NCBI GenBank assembly: GCA_943908425.1 | Contig: CALTTC010000003.1 | Location: 40,661 to 104,660, forward strand | Length of the DNA stretch: 64,000 bases | Source: an uncultured Moraxella sp. | GTDB lineage: Bacteria; Pseudomonadota; Gammaproteobacteria; Pseudomonadales; Moraxellaceae | Reading direction: 5' to 3' | Part shown: positions 7,871 through 58,730 of the stretch, one piece after another | Position numbering within the stretch: position 1 is the first letter of the stretch | Layout: each line of letters opens with the position of its first letter | The notes under the pieces: model-generated | The model's input: the letters and a program-made list of their open reading frames with translations, nothing else | What the model was told of the DNA's origin: nothing | Databases searched by the model: none | Made by a program: the position numbers and the translations under genes

Positions 7871-9106
7871 TTAAAATAATGTTTGTTGCTTATTTGCGAT
7901 TATGGATTTTTCAACCAATTGCAATCTTAGCTTAGCTATATTATCAATAGTACCTTCATAACCATTTTCTAGCAATGTTTGAATAGCTTCTGGGTTATTT
8001 TTTATGGGTTCAGGAGATTGACAGAGTAAAAACCTTCTATTTGCACCATCTTCTTGATTGCACTCAATAACCGCTTGAGCAGTTGTTCCACTACCTGCAA
8101 AAAAATCCATAACAATATCATGCCCATCAGTACACAGCTTAATAAAATATTTAATCATCTGAGTAGGCTTTGCTGTTTTAAACATATGACCCAATCCTAA
8201 TTTTTCTAAATCGTGTTTGCCTTGGCGAGAATAAAAGTTTAAAATGCTCATCGCATTATCCTTGCTATCAATCAATAAATGCTTCTCGTAAGGTCTGTTG
8301 TTTTTAAATATTAACTTATTATCGTGATATAGCTTAATAAATTTTTCTTTTGACGACCAACCACGAGTTTTTAAAGCAGGCAAAAATAGACTAATTTCTG
8401 GAATTTCCAGTGTGTGCGGTTTTGATGGTATAGATAAGTCTTTAGCAAAACAAATATTACCGCATTCATCAACGACAGAATAATTTTTCAACCAACTCAA
8501 TTCTTCATTGCCATCATATTCCTTGAGTTTGTTTTTTAAGAAAAGATTAACATCATCTAAATTATTGCTTTTTAAAAACTCATTTTTAATATCTTGACAT
8601 AAAGATAAAATTATTTGGCGATAATTTGGCATATCAACACGCTTTACACTAAAACTTGGGCATTGCTTTTTGTTCTTAGCATAAACAACAACATATTCGT
8701 GAATTATATTAATATGTTTAGCATTACTTTTAGTCGCCTGCTTTGTAATAAACATACCCAAAAAATTTTTTTTTCCGAAAATACTATCACCAATAATCCT
8801 TAAATCAACCATTTTATTATCATCAATAGAAATAAAAATCACCCCATCATCAGATAGCTTATGCTTTGATTGTTCCAATAAATTTTTTATAAAAAGATCC
8901 CAATTTTCAATATCGTCATTATATTCAAAATTTTTGGATTTGGTGTTATACGGTGGATCTATATATATCATTTTAATTGTATTATTTTTTACAAGTGGCA
9001 AAAAATTCTCAGCATTCATACTATATATTTGATTGTATTGCATCTTTCCACCAATCTTGATTACCATATTTTGCAATAAGTAAATTTTGTGTTTCTTGAT
9101 ATCCAA
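7871..9106 (-). CDS. Site-specific DNA methyltransferase (N6-adenine or N4-cytosine), beta class. It has DPPY before FxGxG and is probably Type II. The likely start is an internal Met near 9043 or 9019, giving little or no overlap with the upstream gene.
   Basis: Motif IV IYIDPPYNT near the N-terminus and motif I VMDFFAGSGTT near the C-terminus with about 290 aa between them (TRD). This is the permuted beta-class architecture. GC is about 28%. Confidence 0.8.
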   Translation of the reverse strand: MDIKKHKIYLLQNMVIKIGGKMQYNQIYSMNAENFLPLVKNNTIKMIYIDPPYNTKSKNFEYNDDIENWDLFIKNLLEQSKHKLSDDGVIFISIDDNKMVDLRIIGDSIFGKKNFLGMFITKQATKSNAKHINIIHEYVVVYAKNKKQCPSFSVKRVDMPNYRQIILSLCQDIKNEFLKSNNLDDVNLFLKNKLKEYDGNEELSWLKNYSVVDECGNICFAKDLSIPSKPHTLEIPEISLFLPALKTRGWSSKEKFIKLYHDNKLIFKNNRPYEKHLLIDSKDNAMSILNFYSRQGKHDLEKLGLGHMFKTAKPTQMIKYFIKLCTDGHDIVMDFFAGSGTTAQAVIECNQEDGANRRFLLCQSPEPIKNNPEAIQTLLENGYEGTIDNIAKLRLQLVEKSIIANKQQTLF

Positions 9107-16936: not shown

Positions 16937-18352
16937 ATGACCGTAACGCTTTTTGACCCCAACGCTTTGCCTAGCCAACCAGCCAGCGACACCGCCCCCA
17001 AAAAAGTCTATATCGCCACCCAAGGCTGTCAGATGAACAGTTACGACAGTAGCAAAATGAGCGATGTACTGAGCAACAGCCACGGCATGATACGCACCGA
17101 TAATATCAATGACGCTGATATATTGATTATGAACACCTGCTCGGTGCGTGAAAAAGCCCAAGAAAAAGTCTTTAGTGAGCTTGGTAGATGGCGCAAACTA
17201 AAAGAAAAAAACCCCAATTTGGTCATTGGTGTCGGCGGGTGTGTGGCAAGCCAAGAAGGGGATAATATCCAAAAACGTGCCCCTTATGTGGATATGGTTT
17301 TTGGTCCACAAACCTTACACCGCTTGCCTGAATTGTATGAAAAATCGCTTGCCCAAACCGCCTTAACCCCCAAAAAGCGTATCGGTACGGTAGATGTCTC
17401 GTTTCCAAGCATTGAAAAATTTGACTTTTTGCCAGAGCCCAAAGTTGATGGGTATAAAGCGTTTGTTTCTATTATGGAAGGCTGTTCTAAATATTGCTCG
17501 TTTTGCATCGTGCCTTATACCCGTGGCGAAGAATTATCACGCCCCTTAGACGATGTTTTGACAGAGATTGACTCACTTGCCGAACAAGGCGTGCGTGAGA
17601 TTACCCTACTTGGACAAAACGTCAATGGCTATCGTGGACAAAAAGATGACGGCAGTTTGTGCCGATTTAGCGAACTTCTGCATTATGTTGCCCACATTGA
17701 CGGCATTGACCGTATCCGCTACACCACAAGCCACCCCTTAGAATTTAGCGACGATATTATTGACGCTTATGCCACCATTCCAAAGCTTGTCAATCATCTA
17801 CATTTACCTGTACAAAGTGGCAGTAACGCCATTTTACAAGCAATGAAACGCAATCACACCATTGATATTTATATTGAACAAATCAAAAAATTGCGTGCCA
17901 TTCGCCCTGACATTCACTTATCTAGCGATTTTATTATCGGTTTTCCCAATGAAAGCGATGACGATTTTAATGCCACATTAGCCCTTGCCAAAGACTTGGA
18001 TTTTGACCATTCTTATAGTTTTGTGTATTCCAAACGACCTGGCACACCTGCCTCTGACTTGCCTGATAACGTGGATTTGGCAACCAAAAAACAACGCCTT
18101 GCTATTTTTCAAAAAGTGATTGTAGACTCAACCATTGCCAAAACAAAGGCCATGCTTGGGCAAACCATCACCGTACTGGTTGAAGAACCATCCGATAGAA
18201 TGCCAGGCTATTTACACGCCTCGGCAGAAAATACCCGTTCGGTCATTTTTGCTGGCGACAATGGTTTATTGGGTAAATTTGTCAAGGTACATATTACCGA
18301 CTACAAAGGCCCGCATATGGTGGCAGGCGAATTGGTGGCAGTGGTGGGTTAG
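16937..18352 (+). CDS. miaB: tRNA-2-methylthio-N6-dimethylallyladenosine synthase (radical SAM MTTase)
   Basis: N-terminal MTTase Cys triad ([18 protein letters not shown]), radical-SAM CxxxCxxC ([11 protein letters not shown]) and a TRAM C-terminus. Confidence 0.9.
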
Positions 18353-18429
18353 GTGGTAATGGACTAGATAGTTAGGATTAGTATAAGATTAGATAGTTAG
18401 CTAAGCTTTTATATTTTAAGGATTAAAAA

Positions 18430-19841
18430 ATGCCCAAAAAAAGCACTACCCAATGGATTTGCTGATTATTTACATGATATCACAAAAGAAAAATCAGGCG
18501 ATAAACAAAGCCTTGCCACACCGCAAGCACTGTTTGACACCTTGCGCGAAAAGGTCATTCATCAAGATAGTGCCTTACGCCAATTAGCTACTTTGGCATT
18601 TTATCACCAAAAAAAACAGTGAACAGCAGACGGATGTCATCATTAAAAATATGCCTGTATTTCTGACCGGTCAAACAGGCACTGGCAAGACGCATATGAT
18701 TGAAGTGCTGTGTCGTACACTCAATCTTCCCTATATCATTTATAACGTTATGAACCTAAGCGCAAACACTTATAAGGGCACCAATCTGCGTAATCTGGGT
18801 GAAAACCTCCTAAAAAGTGTCGATGGCGATAAAGAAAAAGCTGCTCATGCCATCATTTTTTTTGATGAATTTGACAAACTGTTTATGGACAAACAAAATA
18901 AAACCCTGCAAAGCTACCATAATTTACTCATTGCCGAATTATTAACAATCATTGAAGGCAGTGCCGGATTTCCCGTCGATGATAAAGGCGAAGTAATTGA
19001 CAGCAAAAAAATGCTGTTTATTCTCGGTGGCAGCTTTGGTATGCACGAACAAAGTAAGCATGAAAAGATAAACCCTATCGGCTTTCACGAAACCCCTGTC
19101 GCGCCAGAAGAAAAATAGGTCAGCAATCAGCCTGGCTTGACAGAATTTGGACTGCCCGATGAGCTTGCTGGACGGATTGGCGGGGTCATTAAAATGCAAT
19201 CGTTAGGTAACGAGCAGATGATCGAAGTATTTTTTAATAGCCCCACCTCGCCCATTAAAGCTTTGAATCATCGGCTCAGCTTAGTTGATTGTACCCTACA
19301 AATAGAAACCGGTCTTATTAAGCAGTTAATTGACGATAATGCCGATCTCATAAAAAAATTCGGTGTGCGCGGGATTTATCAAGCTTTTTATCAGTTGCCC
19401 GCCGTGAATCAAATACTGTTTTCTGCGCCGGAACAGTCGGGGACTACCTACCGTCTAAGCTGTGATGGCTATGAGATTGTGGACGATGATGAGCCCGACG
19501 ACAGCGACGACATTGATGCTATCTACAGTAGTATAACATATGCCAAAAAAGACCAAACGGCGGCGCTAAGACAGCAGTGGGTTAGCGATGTAATGCAGCT
19601 TAACAACACCGCCCTTAGCATAAAAGAAGAGCTAGACAACCTAGAAAAAATTGAATTTGAAGAATTTCAGCTACTGATAGCCCGCTATGAGCTATGGGAG
19701 ATGCTATACGAAGAATGCATCAACACGCACGCTTATGCCAGCCACGTCACACTAGCAGATTTGGCAATCATTGATACTAGCATAAAAGAGCAATGGGCGA
19801 CACTTTGTAAGCAAGCAACACAAGAAAAGATACCTTTTTGA
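18430..19841 (+). pseudogene. Divergent ClpX-family AAA+ ATPase paralog, disrupted by +1 frameshifts at an A7 tract (18436-18442) and an A8 tract (18609-18616) and by an in-frame TAG at 19119-19121. It lacks the ClpX N-terminal zinc-binding domain and has a unique acidic C-terminal domain of about 150 aa.
   Basis: Conceptual translation across the frames gives TPQALFDTLREKVIHQDSALRQLATLAFYHQK (ClpX-like N-terminus of the AAA module), Walker A FLTGQTGTGKTHM, Walker B AIIFFDEFDKL and a sensor/arginine-finger region EFGLPDELAGRIGGV. The pore loop reads TYKG rather than GYVG. Confidence 0.6.
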
Positions 19842-19919
19842 GTCGGTGTATCACGCCAAACCCTGCCCTGCTAACCTTTTTGTTCATCACGCCATCAAGC
19901 ATAGCAAATTCGCGCTACT

Positions 19920-21128
19920 TTAGTCTTTGGTAAATAATCGTGCCAGCATTCTATCGCAACGCTCAAGCTCACTAATGGCAATAAATTCATCCGCCTTATG
20001 TGCTTCATTGATACGCCCAGGGCCACAAATAACGGTAGGAATGTCCGCCTGATAAAAATGACCGCCTTCGGTCGCATAAGCCACTTTTTGTGTACTGATT
20101 TTTGGGGGATTGGCTGATGCATTATCTTGCGTTTTGGCTTTAGCAATCAGTGTTAATAATTCTGCTTGTTTATCATGACAAGGTAGTGCAGGCACCGCTA
20201 CCTTTTTGGTTAAATAAATGCCACATTCTGGAGCAATCTTTTGCATTGTTTGGCTTAATTTTTCGGCATAAGCACAAATTTTTTGGATAATGACGTCAGG
20301 GTCGCTATTGGGCAAATGGCGTTGTTCAAAAACAAACGAACAGCTGTCCGGCACGATATTAACCGCCGTACCGCCTTGTATCTGCCCCACCGACAGCGTA
20401 GTAAATGGCACATCAAAGGCGGTGTCTTGTACGCCATCTTTAGCTTCTTCGGCGACGTTGGTAATAAACTCAATCATTTTGGCACCATAGCTGATGGCAT
20501 TCACACCCACAGGTGTTAAACTTGAATGCGTGGATTTGCCTTGAATAGTGCATTCATAAACACTAATGCCTTTATGGGCAACCACCGCTTGCAGTTGTGT
20601 TGGCTCGCCAACGATACAGTAGTCAGGCACAGCCCCCCACGTTTTTAGCTTGGCAAGCAATAACGGCACGCCCAAACAGCCCACTTCTTCATCAAATGAC
20701 ACCGCCAAATGCAAAGGGTGAGTCAGCTTATTTTCTTTGGCAAGTCCTACCGCTTCGGGCAAAAAATTTAACACACAGGCAAGAAAACCTTTCATATCGC
20801 ACGCCCCACGCCCATAAATCTTGCCATCACTAATCCACGCACAAAACGGGTTTTGCGACCACGCTTGATTGGCGACAGGCACAACATCACTATGCCCAGA
20901 CAACACAATACCCCCACTTTGCTTAGCTTTAGCAGGGCTATGATTATAAATGCTCACCCATAAATTTGCCTTATCGCCAACAGCATTTGGCACAATCATC
21001 GGCGACAACCCAAGCGTCAATAAAAATGCGTGTATGTCATCAATCAGTGCCAAATTACTATTATGGCTTATCGTATCAAAACCAACTAAGCGTTGTAACC
21101 AATCGCTACTGTTATTAGGGTATGTCAT
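19920..21128 (-). CDS. argE: Acetylornithine deacetylase (M20 peptidase family)
   Basis: LSGHSDVVPV, GKIYGRGACDMKGF, IVGEPTQLQAVVAHKG and CGPGRINEAHKADEF align with E. coli ArgE motifs. Confidence 0.75.
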   Translation of the reverse strand: MTYPNNSSDWLQRLVGFDTISHNSNLALIDDIHAFLLTLGLSPMIVPNAVGDKANLWVSIYNHSPAKAKQSGGIVLSGHSDVVPVANQAWSQNPFCAWISDGKIYGRGACDMKGFLACVLNFLPEAVGLAKENKLTHPLHLAVSFDEEVGCLGVPLLLAKLKTWGAVPDYCIVGEPTQLQAVVAHKGISVYECTIQGKSTHSSLTPVGVNAISYGAKMIEFITNVAEEAKDGVQDTAFDVPFTTLSVGQIQGGTAVNIVPDSCSFVFEQRHLPNSDPDVIIQKICAYAEKLSQTMQKIAPECGIYLTKKVAVPALPCHDKQAELLTLIAKAKTQDNASANPPKISTQKVAYATEGGHFYQADIPTVICGPGRINEAHKADEFIAISELERCDRMLARLFTKD

Positions 21129-56362: not shown

Positions 56363-56438
56363 GGGTCGTTAGCTCAGTTGGTAGAGCGTCTGCCTTACAC
56401 GCAGAATGTCGGCGGTTCGAATCCGTCACGACCCACCA
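56363..56438 (+). tRNA. tRNA-Val (anticodon TAC)
   Basis: Cloverleaf folded by hand: acceptor GGGTCGT/ACGACCC, anticodon stem TCTGC/GCAGA, loop CTTACAC, T-loop GGTTCGAATCC, 3' CCA encoded. Confidence 0.9.
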
Positions 56439-56509
56439 AATACTTTTTTAAATAATTTTTTGAAAGTAGTTTCACTTTTAAAATAGTTTACAAAGTATTA
56501 GCGACCTTA

Positions 56510-56586
56510 GCAGCGGTAGTTCAGTTGGTTAGAATATCGGCCTGTCACGCCGAGGGTCGCGGGTTCGAGTCCCGTCCGCTGCGCCA
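56510..56586 (+). tRNA. tRNA-Asp (anticodon GTC)
   Basis: Acceptor GCAGCGG/CCGCTGC, anticodon loop CTGTCAC, T-loop GGTTCGAGTCC, CCA encoded. Confidence 0.9.
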
Positions 56587-56607: not shown

Positions 56608-56640
56608 ACACCAAATCTCCCCTGATTTGGTGTTTTTTTG
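56608..56640 (+). terminator. Rho-independent terminator of the tRNA operon
   Basis: ACACCAAATC-tcccct-GATTTGGTGT followed by TTTTTTT. Confidence 0.7.
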
Positions 56641-57668
56641 TGTAGTTATCTCCAATCAATACTTCATTTACCTAACAAAAGATTGCCAAAACACACGCTA
56701 AACTAAACAACTTTTTATTAAGAACTTGCCAGATATACCAAGCCTTTTATGCCAGCCTTACCGCTTTTTAACCAATGGCAACTGGCAAACCTTTATCTCT
56801 ATTATATAACATTCAACAAGAAATCCGCCTTTTGGGCATAGAGTTACACGCTAGCTTTGAACGTTATTGATTAATTTTAGTTAATATCCACCACGCTAGT
56901 TATGCCACTTCTAATAGTAATCTATAACCAAAACTTAATTATGCCAAGCAACTTTTAATATCTCTTTAAGCTTATGAAATAAATCTTTTGCTTAATAAAA
57001 CAAATGTCTTTAATGAACCATAAATTGTGCATTGAATTTATAAAACGGCTATTTCATAATTTATGCACAAAACAAAGCGACAATGCCACTTAAGTGATTT
57101 GTGTGATTTTAGGCGATGGTCTTTATGGCAACAACCCAAAGTTACCGTCACCGACACGCCCTATTCATCAAGGTTAAAAAGCTCTTTGCCCCAAATCTCA
57201 TTGACCGCCTTATCATCAAAGCTTTTCATCAGCAAAATCCGCCCCCAAGCATCATTGCTTTTGTCATCATATGAGTAAGGGCGTGTCAGTTTGCTTATTT
57301 ACCCAATCAAACAATGTGCAATCGTTGTCCAAAATAGCGATGTCGCCTTGTTGCATCACCCATCAAACCACAGCAATATCTTATCAAAAAAATGGCGTAT
57401 CAAATGGGCGTTTTTCTTTACCAAAATCAAGGCGATATGATTGGCAGACTAGATGGCGTTTGCCCTCACGCCACAGCGTTTAATTTACGGCATAAGCCTT
57501 TGTTTTTAATATCAAAAATTTATTTTTCAATGCCACAGCTTAAAGCCAACAAACTTGGACTTAATTGTGCAAATTACAATTTAAGTCATTATCGCTCATT
57601 TGACGATTTTACCGTACGAACAAGTGGACGCACGGTCTTTAAAACCATCAATCGTGCCATCTTTATGA

Positions 57669-58730
57669 CTAAAAATACCCACGTTCATAGGCTTTTGGTA
57701 CATCCATCACCCCATCAAAATCCGCCCCTGCTTGATTGTACTGAGCGTTTAGCCACCACTGTGGGTCTCTGAGCAATCCACGCCCCACTGCTACAAGGTC
57801 AGCATCACCCACCGCTAATACATGGTCGGCAACGTGGGGATTTTCTAACATACCAACAGCAATGATTGGCACGTTTGTCGCCTGTTTCATCTTAGAAGAC
57901 AAAGCGACTTGATAGCCTGCACTAAACTCTGGGTGCTTGCCTGCGACCAATACGCCATCACCGCCACCGCTAACGTGCAATATATCCACACCTGCCGCCA
58001 CGTAACGCTTAGCAATTTGTACGCCATAATCGCTGTCATAGCCATTCTCGCCGTATTCCTGGGCAGAGATTCGCATGATTAATGGCATATCGCTTGGCAT
58101 CACCGCCTTGACCGCTTGAATGATTGTCTCGCCAAATAACAATCGGTCTTGACCGTATTTATCATCACGGACATTAGATTTTGGCGAATGAAACTGATGA
58201 ATCAAATACCCGTGTGCCCCATGCAGTTCAATGGCATCAAATCCTGCGTCAATGGCACGTTTAACCGCACTCACAAAGCCTGCAATAATGTCATCAATAT
58301 CGCTTATGCTTAATGCTCTTGGGGTTTTTAGGTTTTGACCTTCAAAGTCCAATTTGCCATAATGAATGGCACTAGGGGCAACCACATCATCACAATTTTG
58401 GGCTTTTCGTCCTGCGTGGGCGATTTGAATGGCGATTTTACTGCCGTGTTTGTGCACGCTGTCCACGATTTTTTTCAATTCATCACGCTGGCTATCACAC
58501 CAAAGCCCTAAGCAGTTGGGCGAAATCCGCCCATTAGGAGCAACGTTGGTCATCTCAACGATAATCAAGCCAATACCGCCTATGGCACGAGCGGTATAAT
58601 GCACAAAATGCCAATCATTAGGCAGACCATCTACCGCTTGATATTGACACATCGGCGGCATGACAAGGCGATTTTTAAGACTTAAGCCTTTTATAGTAAA
58701 AGGTTTTTGTAAAAAGCGAAATTTAGCCAT
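57669..58730 (-). CDS. NADH:flavin oxidoreductase (Old Yellow Enzyme family, YqjM/NamA-like)
   Basis: TIM-barrel OYE motifs (PPMCQY, HGAHGYLIHQFHSP). 353 aa. Confidence 0.8.
   Translation of the reverse strand: MAKFRFLQKPFTIKGLSLKNRLVMPPMCQYQAVDGLPNDWHFVHYTARAIGGIGLIIVEMTNVAPNGRISPNCLGLWCDSQRDELKKIVDSVHKHGSKIAIQIAHAGRKAQNCDDVVAPSAIHYGKLDFEGQNLKTPRALSISDIDDIIAGFVSAVKRAIDAGFDAIELHGAHGYLIHQFHSPKSNVRDDKYGQDRLLFGETIIQAVKAVMPSDMPLIMRISAQEYGENGYDSDYGVQIAKRYVAAGVDILHVSGGGDGVLVAGKHPEFSAGYQVALSSKMKQATNVPIIAVGMLENPHVADHVLAVGDADLVAVGRGLLRDPQWWLNAQYNQAGADFDGVMDVPKAYERGYF

What the first reader, a model, noticed from the sequence alone, without database searches (positions are those of the whole stretch)
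18430..19841. Disrupted, highly divergent ClpX-family AAA+ ATPase paralog with a novel C-terminal domain downstream of miaB
Stitching three reading frames gives a single ClpX-like AAA+ module. Its elements are an N-terminal helix TPQALFDTLREKVIHQDSALRQLATLAFYHQK, Walker A GQTGTGKT, Walker B IIFFDEFDK and a sensor/Arg-finger block EFGLPDELAGRIGGV. It lacks the ClpX zinc-binding N-domain, has TYKG in place of the GYVG pore loop, and carries an acidic C-terminal domain of about 150 aa (DDDEPDDSDD...) with no obvious counterpart. The gene is broken by +1 shifts at an A7 tract (18436-18442) and an A8 tract (18609-18616), and by an in-frame TAG (19119-19121). Deleting a single A in each tract restores the frame. 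It is therefore either a recently decayed accessory ATPase, a slipped-strand phase-variable gene, or partly an assembly homopolymer error. GC is slightly below that of the neighbours.
Basis: partly seen in the sequence, partly recalled or inferred. Interest (0 to 1): 0.65.

Follow-up and report, generated by a model that had tools for sequence, protein, structure and literature searches.

The report
Dead copy of ClpX-like ATPase gene

Summary
Window 18430-19841 (+) encodes, over three frames, one 469-aa ClpX-like AAA+ ATPase. It is broken by two 1-nt insertions and an in-frame TAG, which lies at 19116-19118, not 19119-19121.

A natural intact allele (P0067, 98% DNA identity) matches the repaired reading over its whole length and differs at 10 of 469 positions. 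The lesions are real: eight independent skin-metagenome assemblies are 100% identical across them. Other A8/T9 runs in the window lie in intact ORFs.

Four related haplotypes carry four different indel combinations, and only one is intact. The Moraxella lacunata type-strain ortholog has an independent nonsense codon in the same loop.

The protein is ClpX-like by sequence (ClpX model, E=6e-35) and by fold (TM 0.77-0.82 normalised to the ClpX chains). It is not ClpX: it has no zinc-binding domain and no RKH loop, its pore loop is TYKG, and it scores 121 bits against a 359-bit cut-off. It keeps an invariant IGF-type loop, so ClpP docking is likely but untested.

The family is small, seen almost only in Moraxella and nearly always directly after miaB. 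In 32 of 51 homologues it ends in DD[MLI]PF, like the SSB C-terminal tip. The window lineage adds an orphan helical domain and ends in KIPF.

Verdict: a recent, real pseudogene of an uncharacterised ClpX paralogue. Phase variation is not excluded.

The parts
16937..18352 (+). miaB (tRNA methylthiotransferase), intact. It is the conserved upstream neighbour of the family.
   Evidence: 471-aa ORF. Pfam UPF0004, Radical_SAM and TRAM on the identical locus L024. The same adjacency is seen in L019, L032 and L034-36.
18353..18429 (+). AT-rich spacer (26% GC) holding a direct repeat GAYTAGATAGTTAG x2 (18362-18375 and 18387-18400). No + strand terminator-like site.
   Evidence: A 4-bp TAGT insertion polymorphism lies after 18383 in three related alleles.
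18430..19841 (+). Pseudogene of a 469-aa ClpX-like AAA+ ATPase, read across three frames.
   Evidence: The intact allele P0067/L021 matches the repaired reading over its whole length.
18433..18442 (+). Lesion 1: C3A7 tract, +1 nt relative to the intact allele (C2A7). The frame from the ATG stops after 11 codons.
   Evidence: alignment and translation (MPKKSTTQWIC*).
18609..18616 (+). Lesion 2: A8 tract. It is A7 in the intact allele and in L018, and A9 in L022.
18669..18692 (+). Walker A, GQTGTGKT.
   Evidence: G80, T82, G83, G85, K86 and T87 are invariant in 39 family members.
18768..18779 (+). Pore-1 loop TYKG (ClpX has GYVG). The Tyr and the final Gly are retained.
   Evidence: G116 invariant.
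18852..18878 (+). Walker B, IIFFDEFDK. It contains a T8 run (18856-18863) that is T9 in allele L018.
19077..19085 (+). IGF tripeptide (in PIGF), in the loop that in ClpX docks onto ClpP.
   Evidence: G217 and F218 are invariant in 39 sequences. It aligns within 2 residues of the ClpX IGF. The loop has low pLDDT, consistent with flexibility.
19116..19118 (+). Lesion 3: in-frame TAG. All four related alleles have GGG (Gly) here, so this is a GG>TA dinucleotide change.
19143..19187 (+). EFGLPDELAGRIGGV, the Arg-finger block (R248 invariant).
19359..19373 (+). FGVRG, the sensor-II arginine block (R313 invariant).
19482..19535 (+). Acidic, predicted-disordered linker (residues 351-368, DDDEPDDSDD...).
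   Evidence: pLDDT below 50 for residues 362-371.
19536..19823 (+). Lineage-specific helical domain (residues 369-464) with no detectable relative outside this species and one sister species.
   Evidence: AF2 helices. No Pfam match. No Foldseek PDB hit with E<1. HMMER against 1.84 billion representatives finds only its own cluster and P0002.
19827..19841 (+). C-terminal KIPF plus the TGA stop. This is a degenerate form of the family's DD[MLI]PF tail.
19920..21128 (-). Convergent downstream gene, an M20-family peptidase, intact.

Best explanation
Window 18430-19841 is a real, recently inactivated pseudogene of an uncharacterised ClpX paralogue. The window is identical to a scaffold of a human-skin metagenome assembly, and its closest relatives are Moraxella.

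In its intact form (469 aa in a related strain) the protein is most likely a hexameric ATP-driven unfoldase. It has a complete ATPase site: Walker A and B, Arg finger and sensor II. It has a Tyr-bearing pore loop and an invariant IGF-type loop, so it probably docks onto ClpP as ClpX does. That docking is inferred, not shown.

It lacks the N-terminal zinc-binding domain and the RKH loops that ClpX uses for adaptors and ssrA tags. Partner or substrate choice has therefore probably moved to the C-terminus. In most relatives that is a disordered, often Pro-rich linker ending in an acidic DD[MLI]PF tip resembling the SSB C-terminal tip (function inferred). In this lineage it is an orphan helical domain ending in KIPF.

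In the window strain no full-length product can be made. There is an extra C in the C3A7 tract after the ATG, an extra A in the A8 tract, and a GG>TA change that creates a TAG just after the IGF loop. A related allele (L023) has both frameshifts but GGG at the TAG site. On the simplest reading the frameshifts came first, though the haplotypes look mosaic, so the order is not certain.

The gene appears dispensable and is lost repeatedly in nature.
For: Real, not artefact:
- L024-L031 (eight assemblies of different ENA analyses) are 100% identical to the window over the parts they cover. All eight cover the A8 tract and the TAG; two cover the C3A7 tract.
- Other A8/T9 runs in the window lie in long intact ORFs.

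Identity of the protein:
- NCBIfam ClpX 121 bits, E=6e-35.
- Pfam AAA and AAA_2.
- PDB ClpX 6sfw, E=1e-24 over residues 28-339.
- AF2 model with pLDDT 84. All 50 listed Foldseek matches are ClpX or mitochondrial CLPX chains, best E=4.5e-18, TM 0.77-0.82 normalised to the target chain and 0.5-0.6 normalised to the query.

Intact allele and repair:
- P0067/L021 (469 aa) matches the repaired reading over its whole length, with GGG at the TAG site.

Recent decay:
- Segregating codons are 15 synonymous to 13 nonsynonymous, against a neutral expectation of 79% nonsynonymous (p=1.5e-4). The AAA+ half is 9:2.
- Flanking genes have pN/pS 0.02.

Recurrent loss:
- L018, L022 and L023 carry different indel sets.
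- M. lacunata CCUG 4441 has CAA>TAA eight codons after PIGF, in a gene otherwise 99.6% identical to intact copies.

Family features:
- G217 and F218 of the IGF, the Walker motifs, R248 and R313 are invariant in 39 sequences.
- The tail logo has D at -5 (25/32), D at -4 (23/32), M/L/I at -3, and P and F in 32/32.
- The family sits immediately after miaB in four species-level loci.
Against: - pN/pS stays well below 1 and an intact allele persists. The gene is therefore not an old pseudogene and could be switched rather than lost.
- The gene holds 5 of the window's A/T runs of 7 or more, where about 1 would be expected from its length. The sister species has an A8 tract at the same 5' position. 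Both features also fit a contingency locus.
- ClpP docking, hexamer formation and any SSB-tip-like function rest on motif conservation only.
- A canonical clpX, clpP or ssb was not found in the DNA available here. 'Paralogue' is therefore an inference from general knowledge of Proteobacteria.
- The platform of the SRR243387xx runs is unknown. The two singleton tract lengths (A9 in L022, T9 in L018) could be read errors.
Confidence: 0.8

Rival explanations
1. The gene is a phase-variable contingency gene. Slipped-strand changes at the C/A, A and T tracts switch expression on and off in the population, and the window shows an 'off' state.
For: - Five haplotypes at 97.7-98.8% DNA identity to the window show five different tract or indel states: C2/C3, A7/A8/A9 and T8/T9.
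- Long A/T runs are about five-fold enriched in the gene.
- A poly-A tract directly after the ATG is kept in the 57%-identical orthologue (A8 in L019).
- Substitutions still show purifying selection.
- All indels fall in the gene or its spacer, and none in about 3.4 kb of flanking coding DNA.
Against: - The TAG (a GG>TA change) and the 2-bp CA deletion in L018/L022 are not repeat-length changes and cannot revert by slippage.
- Tracts of 7-9 A/T are short for high-rate switching (established knowledge of contingency loci).
- Two tracts are 'off' at once in the window and in L023.
- Eight assemblies of the window lineage show no length variation.
- The flanks contain no long homopolymers, so 'indels only in the gene' is a weak control.
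Confidence: 0.15
2. The frameshifts are homopolymer errors of sequencing or assembly, and the gene is intact in the organism.
For: Two of the three lesions lie at homopolymers. The singleton A9 and T9 states come from Logan assemblies of runs whose platform is unknown.
Against: - The A8 tract and the TAG are identical in eight independently assembled contigs from different ENA analyses. Two are HMP skin runs of PRJNA46333, which I believe are Illumina data (not checked here). C3A7 is seen in two of the eight and in two Logan contigs.
- The TAG is a dinucleotide substitution, not a length error.
- A T9 at 8766-8774 and A8 runs elsewhere in the window sit in intact ORFs.
Confidence: 0.02
3. The gene is still expressed by recoding or as a split protein. 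Transcriptional or ribosomal slippage at the A tracts would restore the frame, and the TAG would divide the ATPase into two polypeptides that reassemble (re-initiation at TTG 19137).
For: - The TAG lies in the flexible loop after the IGF (low pLDDT).
- M. lacunata has an independent stop in the same loop.
- An ORF restarts 18 nt downstream of the TAG.
- Polymerase slippage at A runs is known to rescue frameshifted genes in some bacteria (established knowledge).
Against: - It needs two separate slippage events plus re-initiation.
- The intact allele and all other relatives are single polypeptides with no stop there.
- The split would separate the Walker motifs from the Arg finger within the large domain.
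- Two stops falling within about 20 codons of a 470-codon gene is only about 4% unlikely by chance (my estimate).
Confidence: 0.03

Closest known systems
ClpX (bacterial ATP-dependent Clp protease ATP-binding subunit; NCBIfam NF003745 / TIGR00382; PDB 6sfw, 6wrf, 6vfs)
   Same: - It has the same AAA+ fold: TM 0.77-0.82 normalised to the ClpX chains.
- Walker A and B, the Arg-finger block GLPDELxGR (ClpX: GLIPEFIGR) and the sensor-II GxRG are present.
- The pore-1 loop carries an aromatic residue.
- An IGF tripeptide sits in the equivalent flexible loop.
   Different: - Only about 25% identity, and 121 bits against a 359-bit cut-off.
- No N-terminal C4 zinc-binding domain.
- The RKH loop is deleted.
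- The pore-2 region is shortened.
- The pore loop is TYKG/GYKG instead of GYVG.
- It has a C-terminal extension that ClpX lacks.
SSB C-terminal tip (SSB-Ct, ...MDFDDDIPF in E. coli; PMC5872125, PMC10018359)
   Same: Most family members end in a disordered, often Pro-rich linker followed by acidic or aromatic residues and then D-D-[M/L/I]-P-F-COOH. Examples are EFFYDDDMPF and DPDDDIPF. This is the same pattern as the SSB linker plus acidic tip.
   Different: - It is attached to an unfoldase, not to an OB-fold DNA binder.
- No binding to any SSB partner has been tested.
- The window protein's own tail is degenerate (QEKIPF; EEKIPF in the intact allele) and follows a folded helical domain rather than a linker.
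- A few members end in ...LW or lack the tail.
HslU
   Same: It is the next-best AAA+ relative. Like this family, HslU uses its extreme C-terminus functionally, to dock and activate HslV (established knowledge).
   Different: HslU has an I-domain and no IGF loop. Its match here is weak (39 bits). The family shows no HslV linkage.
Homopolymer-tract contingency (phase-variable) genes of mucosal bacteria
   Same: Reading-frame changes at A, T and C runs differ between closely related strains, and there is a run directly after the start codon.
   Different: The tracts are short (7-9). Non-repeat lesions co-occur (the TAG and the CA deletion). No within-sample heterogeneity has been shown.

Membership tests
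ClpX (equivalog sense) | Scores above the curated NCBIfam cut-off for ClpX | tested here: not met
   NF003745 gives 120.9 bits against a cut-off of 359. TIGR00382 gives 105.2 against 370.75.
ClpX (equivalog sense) | N-terminal C4-type zinc-binding domain (adaptor and substrate docking) | tested here: not met
   Only about 27 residues precede the AAA+ module, and they contain no Cys. No zf-C4_ClpX Pfam hit. The ClpX alignment starts at ClpX residue 61.
ClpX (equivalog sense) | GYVG pore-1 loop | tested here: not met
   TYKG in the window. Most relatives have GYKG or GFKG, and the long-N-terminus subgroup has GIVG. The aromatic residue is kept in the window subgroup.
ClpX (equivalog sense) | RKH loop at the pore entrance | tested here: not met
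   The pairwise alignment shows a deletion where ClpX has GGRKHP: 'fpvddkg......ev' against 'VPPQG-GrkhphqEL'.
ClpX (equivalog sense) | IGF loop for ClpP docking | tested here: met
   PIGF at residues 215-218. G217 and F218 are invariant in 39 family members. The loop is equivalent to that in ClpX. Actual ClpP binding is not testable here.
AAA+ ATPase, HCLR clade (ClpX/HslU-like fold) | Walker A, Walker B, Arg finger and sensor II; large plus small AAA+ domains | tested here: met
   Pfam AAA and AAA_2 are above their cut-offs. The catalytic residues are invariant. The AF2 model matches ClpX chains.
Proteins carrying a functional SSB-Ct-type tip | C-terminal acidic residues followed by [I/L/M]-P-F-COOH after a disordered linker | tested here: inconclusive
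   Met by 32 of 51 relatives. The window protein has E/Q-K-I-P-F after a folded domain.
Proteins carrying a functional SSB-Ct-type tip | Binds the SSB-Ct pocket of SSB-interacting proteins (ExoI, RecQ, PriA, chi and others) | not testable with these tools
   Needs binding assays or complex prediction.
Phase-variable contingency locus | Reversible, high-frequency repeat-length change, seen as within-population heterogeneity | not testable with these tools
   Only consensus assemblies are available. Between-strain tract differences are seen, but eight assemblies of the window lineage are identical.
Pseudogene | Frame-disrupting lesions relative to an intact orthologue or allele, present in the organism and not in the assembly only | tested here: met
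   Two frameshifts plus a TAG relative to the intact P0067. They are reproduced in independent assemblies.

The most novel reading that the evidence does not exclude
The miaB-linked family may be a previously unrecognised ClpP-docking unfoldase that has swapped the N-terminal adaptor domain of ClpX for a C-terminal mimic of the SSB tip. A hexamer would then display six SSB-Ct-like tails. These could plug into the SSB-binding pockets of replication and repair enzymes, to remodel or degrade them or to compete with SSB. In the window's species, expression of this costly factor might be toggled or repeatedly discarded through homopolymer slippage.
Probability: 0.2. Interest if true: 0.75.

Novelty: new variant of a known kind. 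Interest (0 to 1): 0.45.

Why it matters
The window copy is simply a dead gene, and showing that it is real rather than an assembly error is useful for annotation.

The wider value lies in the family it belongs to. ClpX is normally a single, highly conserved gene whose specificity comes from its N-terminal zinc domain and RKH loops. Here is a narrow, unannotated paralogue ('AAA family ATPase') that keeps the ClpP-docking loop but has lost both specificity elements. In most members it carries a tail that resembles the SSB tip in sequence pattern.

If the tail works like SSB-Ct, it would link a Clp-type unfoldase directly to the SSB interactome. That is a concrete hypothesis and can be tested with peptides and pull-downs.

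The repeated natural knock-outs (four haplotypes in one species and one type strain in another) suggest the gene is conditionally dispensable or costly. They also provide ready-made null and intact alleles for comparison.

Tried and rejected
- Assembly artefact: rejected. Independent assemblies are identical, and other homopolymers in the window are intact.
- Known defence ATPase: PADLOC gives only weak generic AAA matches to IetA and DolB (E=4.6e-6 or weaker, P-loop region only). Not pursued.
- Mobile origin: tblastn of a typical member against 50,697 phage and 72,556 plasmid records finds only ordinary ClpX-level matches of about 26%. The gene is syntenic after miaB in several species, so it is chromosomal and vertically inherited.
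- Known fold or domain for the C-terminal 118 aa:
  - Pfam finds nothing. KIX_2 is sub-threshold, and only for the sister protein.
  - Foldseek against the PDB finds nothing with E<1, on a model with pLDDT 66.
  - HMMER against 1.84 billion representatives finds only its own cluster, P0002 and a spurious repeat protein.
- More alleles from JGI metagenomes: one exact-match scan returned only a contig already held.
- The window's species was not found among the GTDB species representatives. The best genome hits were 37-44% identical Moraxella loci and one 40% identical contig binned as Acinetobacter.
- Compensating frameshifts: the indels of L018 (+1, -2, +1) and L022 (-2, +2) sum to zero. However, the CA deletion makes an immediate TAG, and C3A7 stops after 11 codons, so no long product is restored.
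- Literature: no paper links a ClpX paralogue to Moraxella. No paper found among the ranked hits of two searches describes an SSB-Ct-like tail on a Clp ATPase.
- ssb, clpX or clpP in the held DNA: none found.
Full report
**1. What is in the sequence**

Translating 18360-19860 in three frames shows one protein split over three frames.
- MPKK... starts at ATG 18430 and stops after 11 codons.
- The next frame carries ...KKALPNGFADYLHDITKEKSGDKQSLATPQALFDTLREKVIHQDSALRQLATLAFYHQKKQ*.
- The third frame carries everything from ...NSEQQTDVIIKNMPVFLTGQTGTGKT... to ...EKIPF* (stop at 19839-19841), interrupted once by a TAG.

Removing one base at 18433-18442 (C3A7) and one at 18609-18616 (A8) gives a 469-codon frame with a single internal stop. 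That stop is at 19116-19118. All quoted motifs are present.

**2. The lesions are real**

The window is identical to a 149,765-bp scaffold of a human-skin metagenome assembly (L024). Seven further contigs from other ENA analyses are 100% identical to it over the parts of the gene they cover. These include two HMP skin runs of PRJNA46333.
- All eight cover the A8 tract and the TAG.
- Two cover the C3A7 tract.

Elsewhere in the window a T9 (8766-8774) and several A8 runs lie inside long uninterrupted ORFs. The rest of the window is densely packed with intact genes. A general homopolymer-error problem is therefore excluded, and the TAG is not a length error in any case.

**3. An intact allele exists, and the locus is polymorphic for knock-outs**

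The 90%-identity protein cluster of the window's fragments contains a 469-aa member, P0067. Its contig L021 is 98.3-98.4% identical to the window. It reads ATGCC-A7, A7, T8 and GGG where the window reads ATGCCC-A7, A8, T8 and TAG.

The repaired reading is therefore correct. The first lesion is strictly an extra C, and the second is an extra A.

Three more haplotypes (97.7-98.8% identity over the gene region) each carry a different lesion set:

| Haplotype | Lesions |
|---|---|
| L023 | the window's two frameshifts, but GGG at the TAG site |
| L018 | C3A7, a 2-bp CA deletion at 18560-61, and T9 in the Walker B codons |
| L022 | the CA deletion and A9 |

On the simplest reading the frameshifts in the window lineage came before the TAG, but the haplotypes look mosaic, so recombination could have separated them. 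All indels in these contigs lie in the gene or its upstream spacer. None lie in about 3.4 kb of flanking miaB and M20 coding DNA. Those flanks contain no long homopolymers, however, so this is only a weak control.

In a different species, the M. lacunata type strain CCUG 4441 carries CAA>TAA eight codons after the PIGF motif. The gene is otherwise 99.6% identical to intact copies from metagenomes.

**4. How old is the damage?**

Across the five haplotypes, 15 codons segregate synonymous changes and 13 nonsynonymous. That is far fewer nonsynonymous than neutrality predicts (79%; binomial p=1.5e-4).
- The AAA+ half is 9:2.
- The C-terminal half is 6:11.
- Pairwise pN/pS is 0.10-0.34, against 0.02 in the flanks.

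The core was thus under selection until recently, or still is in strains where the gene is intact. The C-terminal domain evolves almost freely.

Changes private to the window lineage are the nonsense codon, L234P, E464Q and one synonymous site. That mix is what drift after inactivation would give.

**5. What the protein is**

| Search | Result |
|---|---|
| NCBIfam ClpX | E=6e-35, but 121 bits against a 359-bit cut-off |
| Pfam | AAA and AAA_2 |
| PDB sequence search | ClpX 6sfw, E=1e-24, residues 28-339 |
| AF2 model of P0067 with 39 relatives | pLDDT 84 |
| Foldseek of that model against PDB | all 50 listed matches are ClpX or mitochondrial CLPX chains; best E=4.5e-18; TM 0.77-0.82 normalised to the target, 0.5-0.6 to the query |

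Retained and invariant in 39 family members:
- Walker A and Walker B;
- the Arg-finger block and the sensor-II Arg;
- the Gly of the pore loop;
- the G-F of a [P/A][I/M]GF motif, in the flexible loop that corresponds to the ClpP-docking IGF loop of ClpX.

Missing: the zinc-binding domain, the RKH loop and part of the pore-2 region. The pore loop is TYKG.

I therefore treat it as working like a ClpX-type unfoldase that probably docks on ClpP (inferred). It is not a ClpX orthologue.

**6. The family and its context**

Two database searches recover only about 50 clusters among 5.8 billion proteins. The only names given are 'AAA family ATPase [Moraxella sp.]'. Genome hits are M. lacunata, Moraxella MAGs and one contig binned as Acinetobacter.

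The gene lies directly after miaB:
- in the window;
- in the 57%-identical sister orthologue (L019);
- in Moraxella sp. VT-16-12, where its start overlaps the miaB stop;
- in the M. lacunata group.

No + strand terminator-like site separates it from miaB here.

A longer subgroup has a roughly 200-aa N-terminal extension and no PF tail. The one member checked (P0039) sits elsewhere, next to hsp33.

No close relative occurs on phages or plasmids.

**7. The C-terminus**

In 32 of 51 relatives the AAA+ module is followed by a short, often Pro-rich linker and then a tail with these features:
- D at -5 (25/32) and D at -4 (23/32);
- M, L or I at -3;
- P at -2 and F at -1 (32/32 each);
- often aromatic or acidic residues just upstream, as in EFFYDDDMPF and DPDDDIPF.

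This is the pattern of the SSB C-terminal tip (DDDIPF, a nine-residue acidic tip after a disordered linker; PMC5872125, PMC10018359).

Whether the tail binds SSB partners is untested.

The window lineage and its sister differ. After an acidic disordered stretch they have a helical domain of about 100 aa, and the window protein ends in KIPF. Four searches found no relative of that domain:
- Pfam finds nothing.
- Foldseek against the PDB finds nothing with E<1, though the stand-alone model has only pLDDT 66.
- A full HMMER pass over 1.84 billion representatives finds nothing outside the two species.

**8. Decay or switch?**

For a switch:
- tract lengths differ between haplotypes;
- the gene holds 5 of the window's long A/T runs, where about 1 is expected;
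- the sister orthologue keeps an A8 right after its ATG;
- selection is still visible.

For plain decay:
- the TAG and the CA deletion are irreversible;
- two tracts are off at once;
- the tracts are short;
- eight assemblies of this lineage show no variation;
- another species lost the gene by a simple nonsense mutation.

I favour recurrent loss of a dispensable gene (0.8 for 'real pseudogene'). I leave about 0.15 for species-level phase variation, which only read-level data can settle.

**9. Verdict**

The finding is correct and not an artefact, but the window copy is an ordinary pseudogene. The interest lies in the family: a ZBD-less, RKH-less ClpX paralogue that retains the IGF loop, is linked to miaB, and carries an SSB-tip-like tail. 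It appears undescribed.

Noticed in passing
L002 about 8820 (equivalent to L034 position 8970): The Moraxella lacunata CCUG 4441 type-strain orthologue has a CAA>TAA nonsense codon eight codons after PIGF. This is the same flexible loop as the window's TAG. The gene is otherwise 99.6% identical to intact metagenomic copies.
   Followed up: yes
window 18437-18534: Six of the seven short independent contigs of this allele begin within about 100 bp of the start codon. Three of them begin at or in the A7 tract (18438, 18443, 18443). This could reflect a coverage drop in the 26%-GC spacer or tract-length heterogeneity breaking the assembly graph.
   Followed up: no
window 18362-18400: The miaB-gene spacer holds a direct repeat GAYTAGATAGTTAG x2, 25 bp apart. 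Three related alleles carry an extra TAGT after 18383.
   Followed up: partly
window 19116-19117 and 19820-19821: The window lineage carries two adjacent-base double substitutions in this gene (GG>TA making the stop, and CG>AC). That is unusual for so few private changes.
   Followed up: no
L037 8001-9644 (P0039); also P0036, P0046-P0052: A second subgroup of the family (about 500-600 aa) has a conserved N-terminal extension of about 200 aa plus an acidic low-complexity insert. It has a GIVG pore loop without Tyr and no PF tail. The one member checked (P0039, L037/L038) sits next to hsp33 and near a type I-F CRISPR-Cas locus.
   Followed up: partly
L019 2336-7024: In the sister species, a TonB-dependent receptor, a TbpB-like lipoprotein and a Slam translocon gene are inserted between the AAA+ gene and the M20 peptidase gene.
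   Followed up: no
window 56640-57669: About 1 kb without a convincing ORF lies directly downstream of tRNA-Val and tRNA-Asp (56363-56586). It is possibly a remnant of an integration site.
   Followed up: no
cluster members P0068, P0069: Some ENA gene calls read through the TGA stop as Trp (…EKIPFWVGVSRQ…). This is most likely a gene-caller genetic-code artefact rather than a variant.
   Followed up: no
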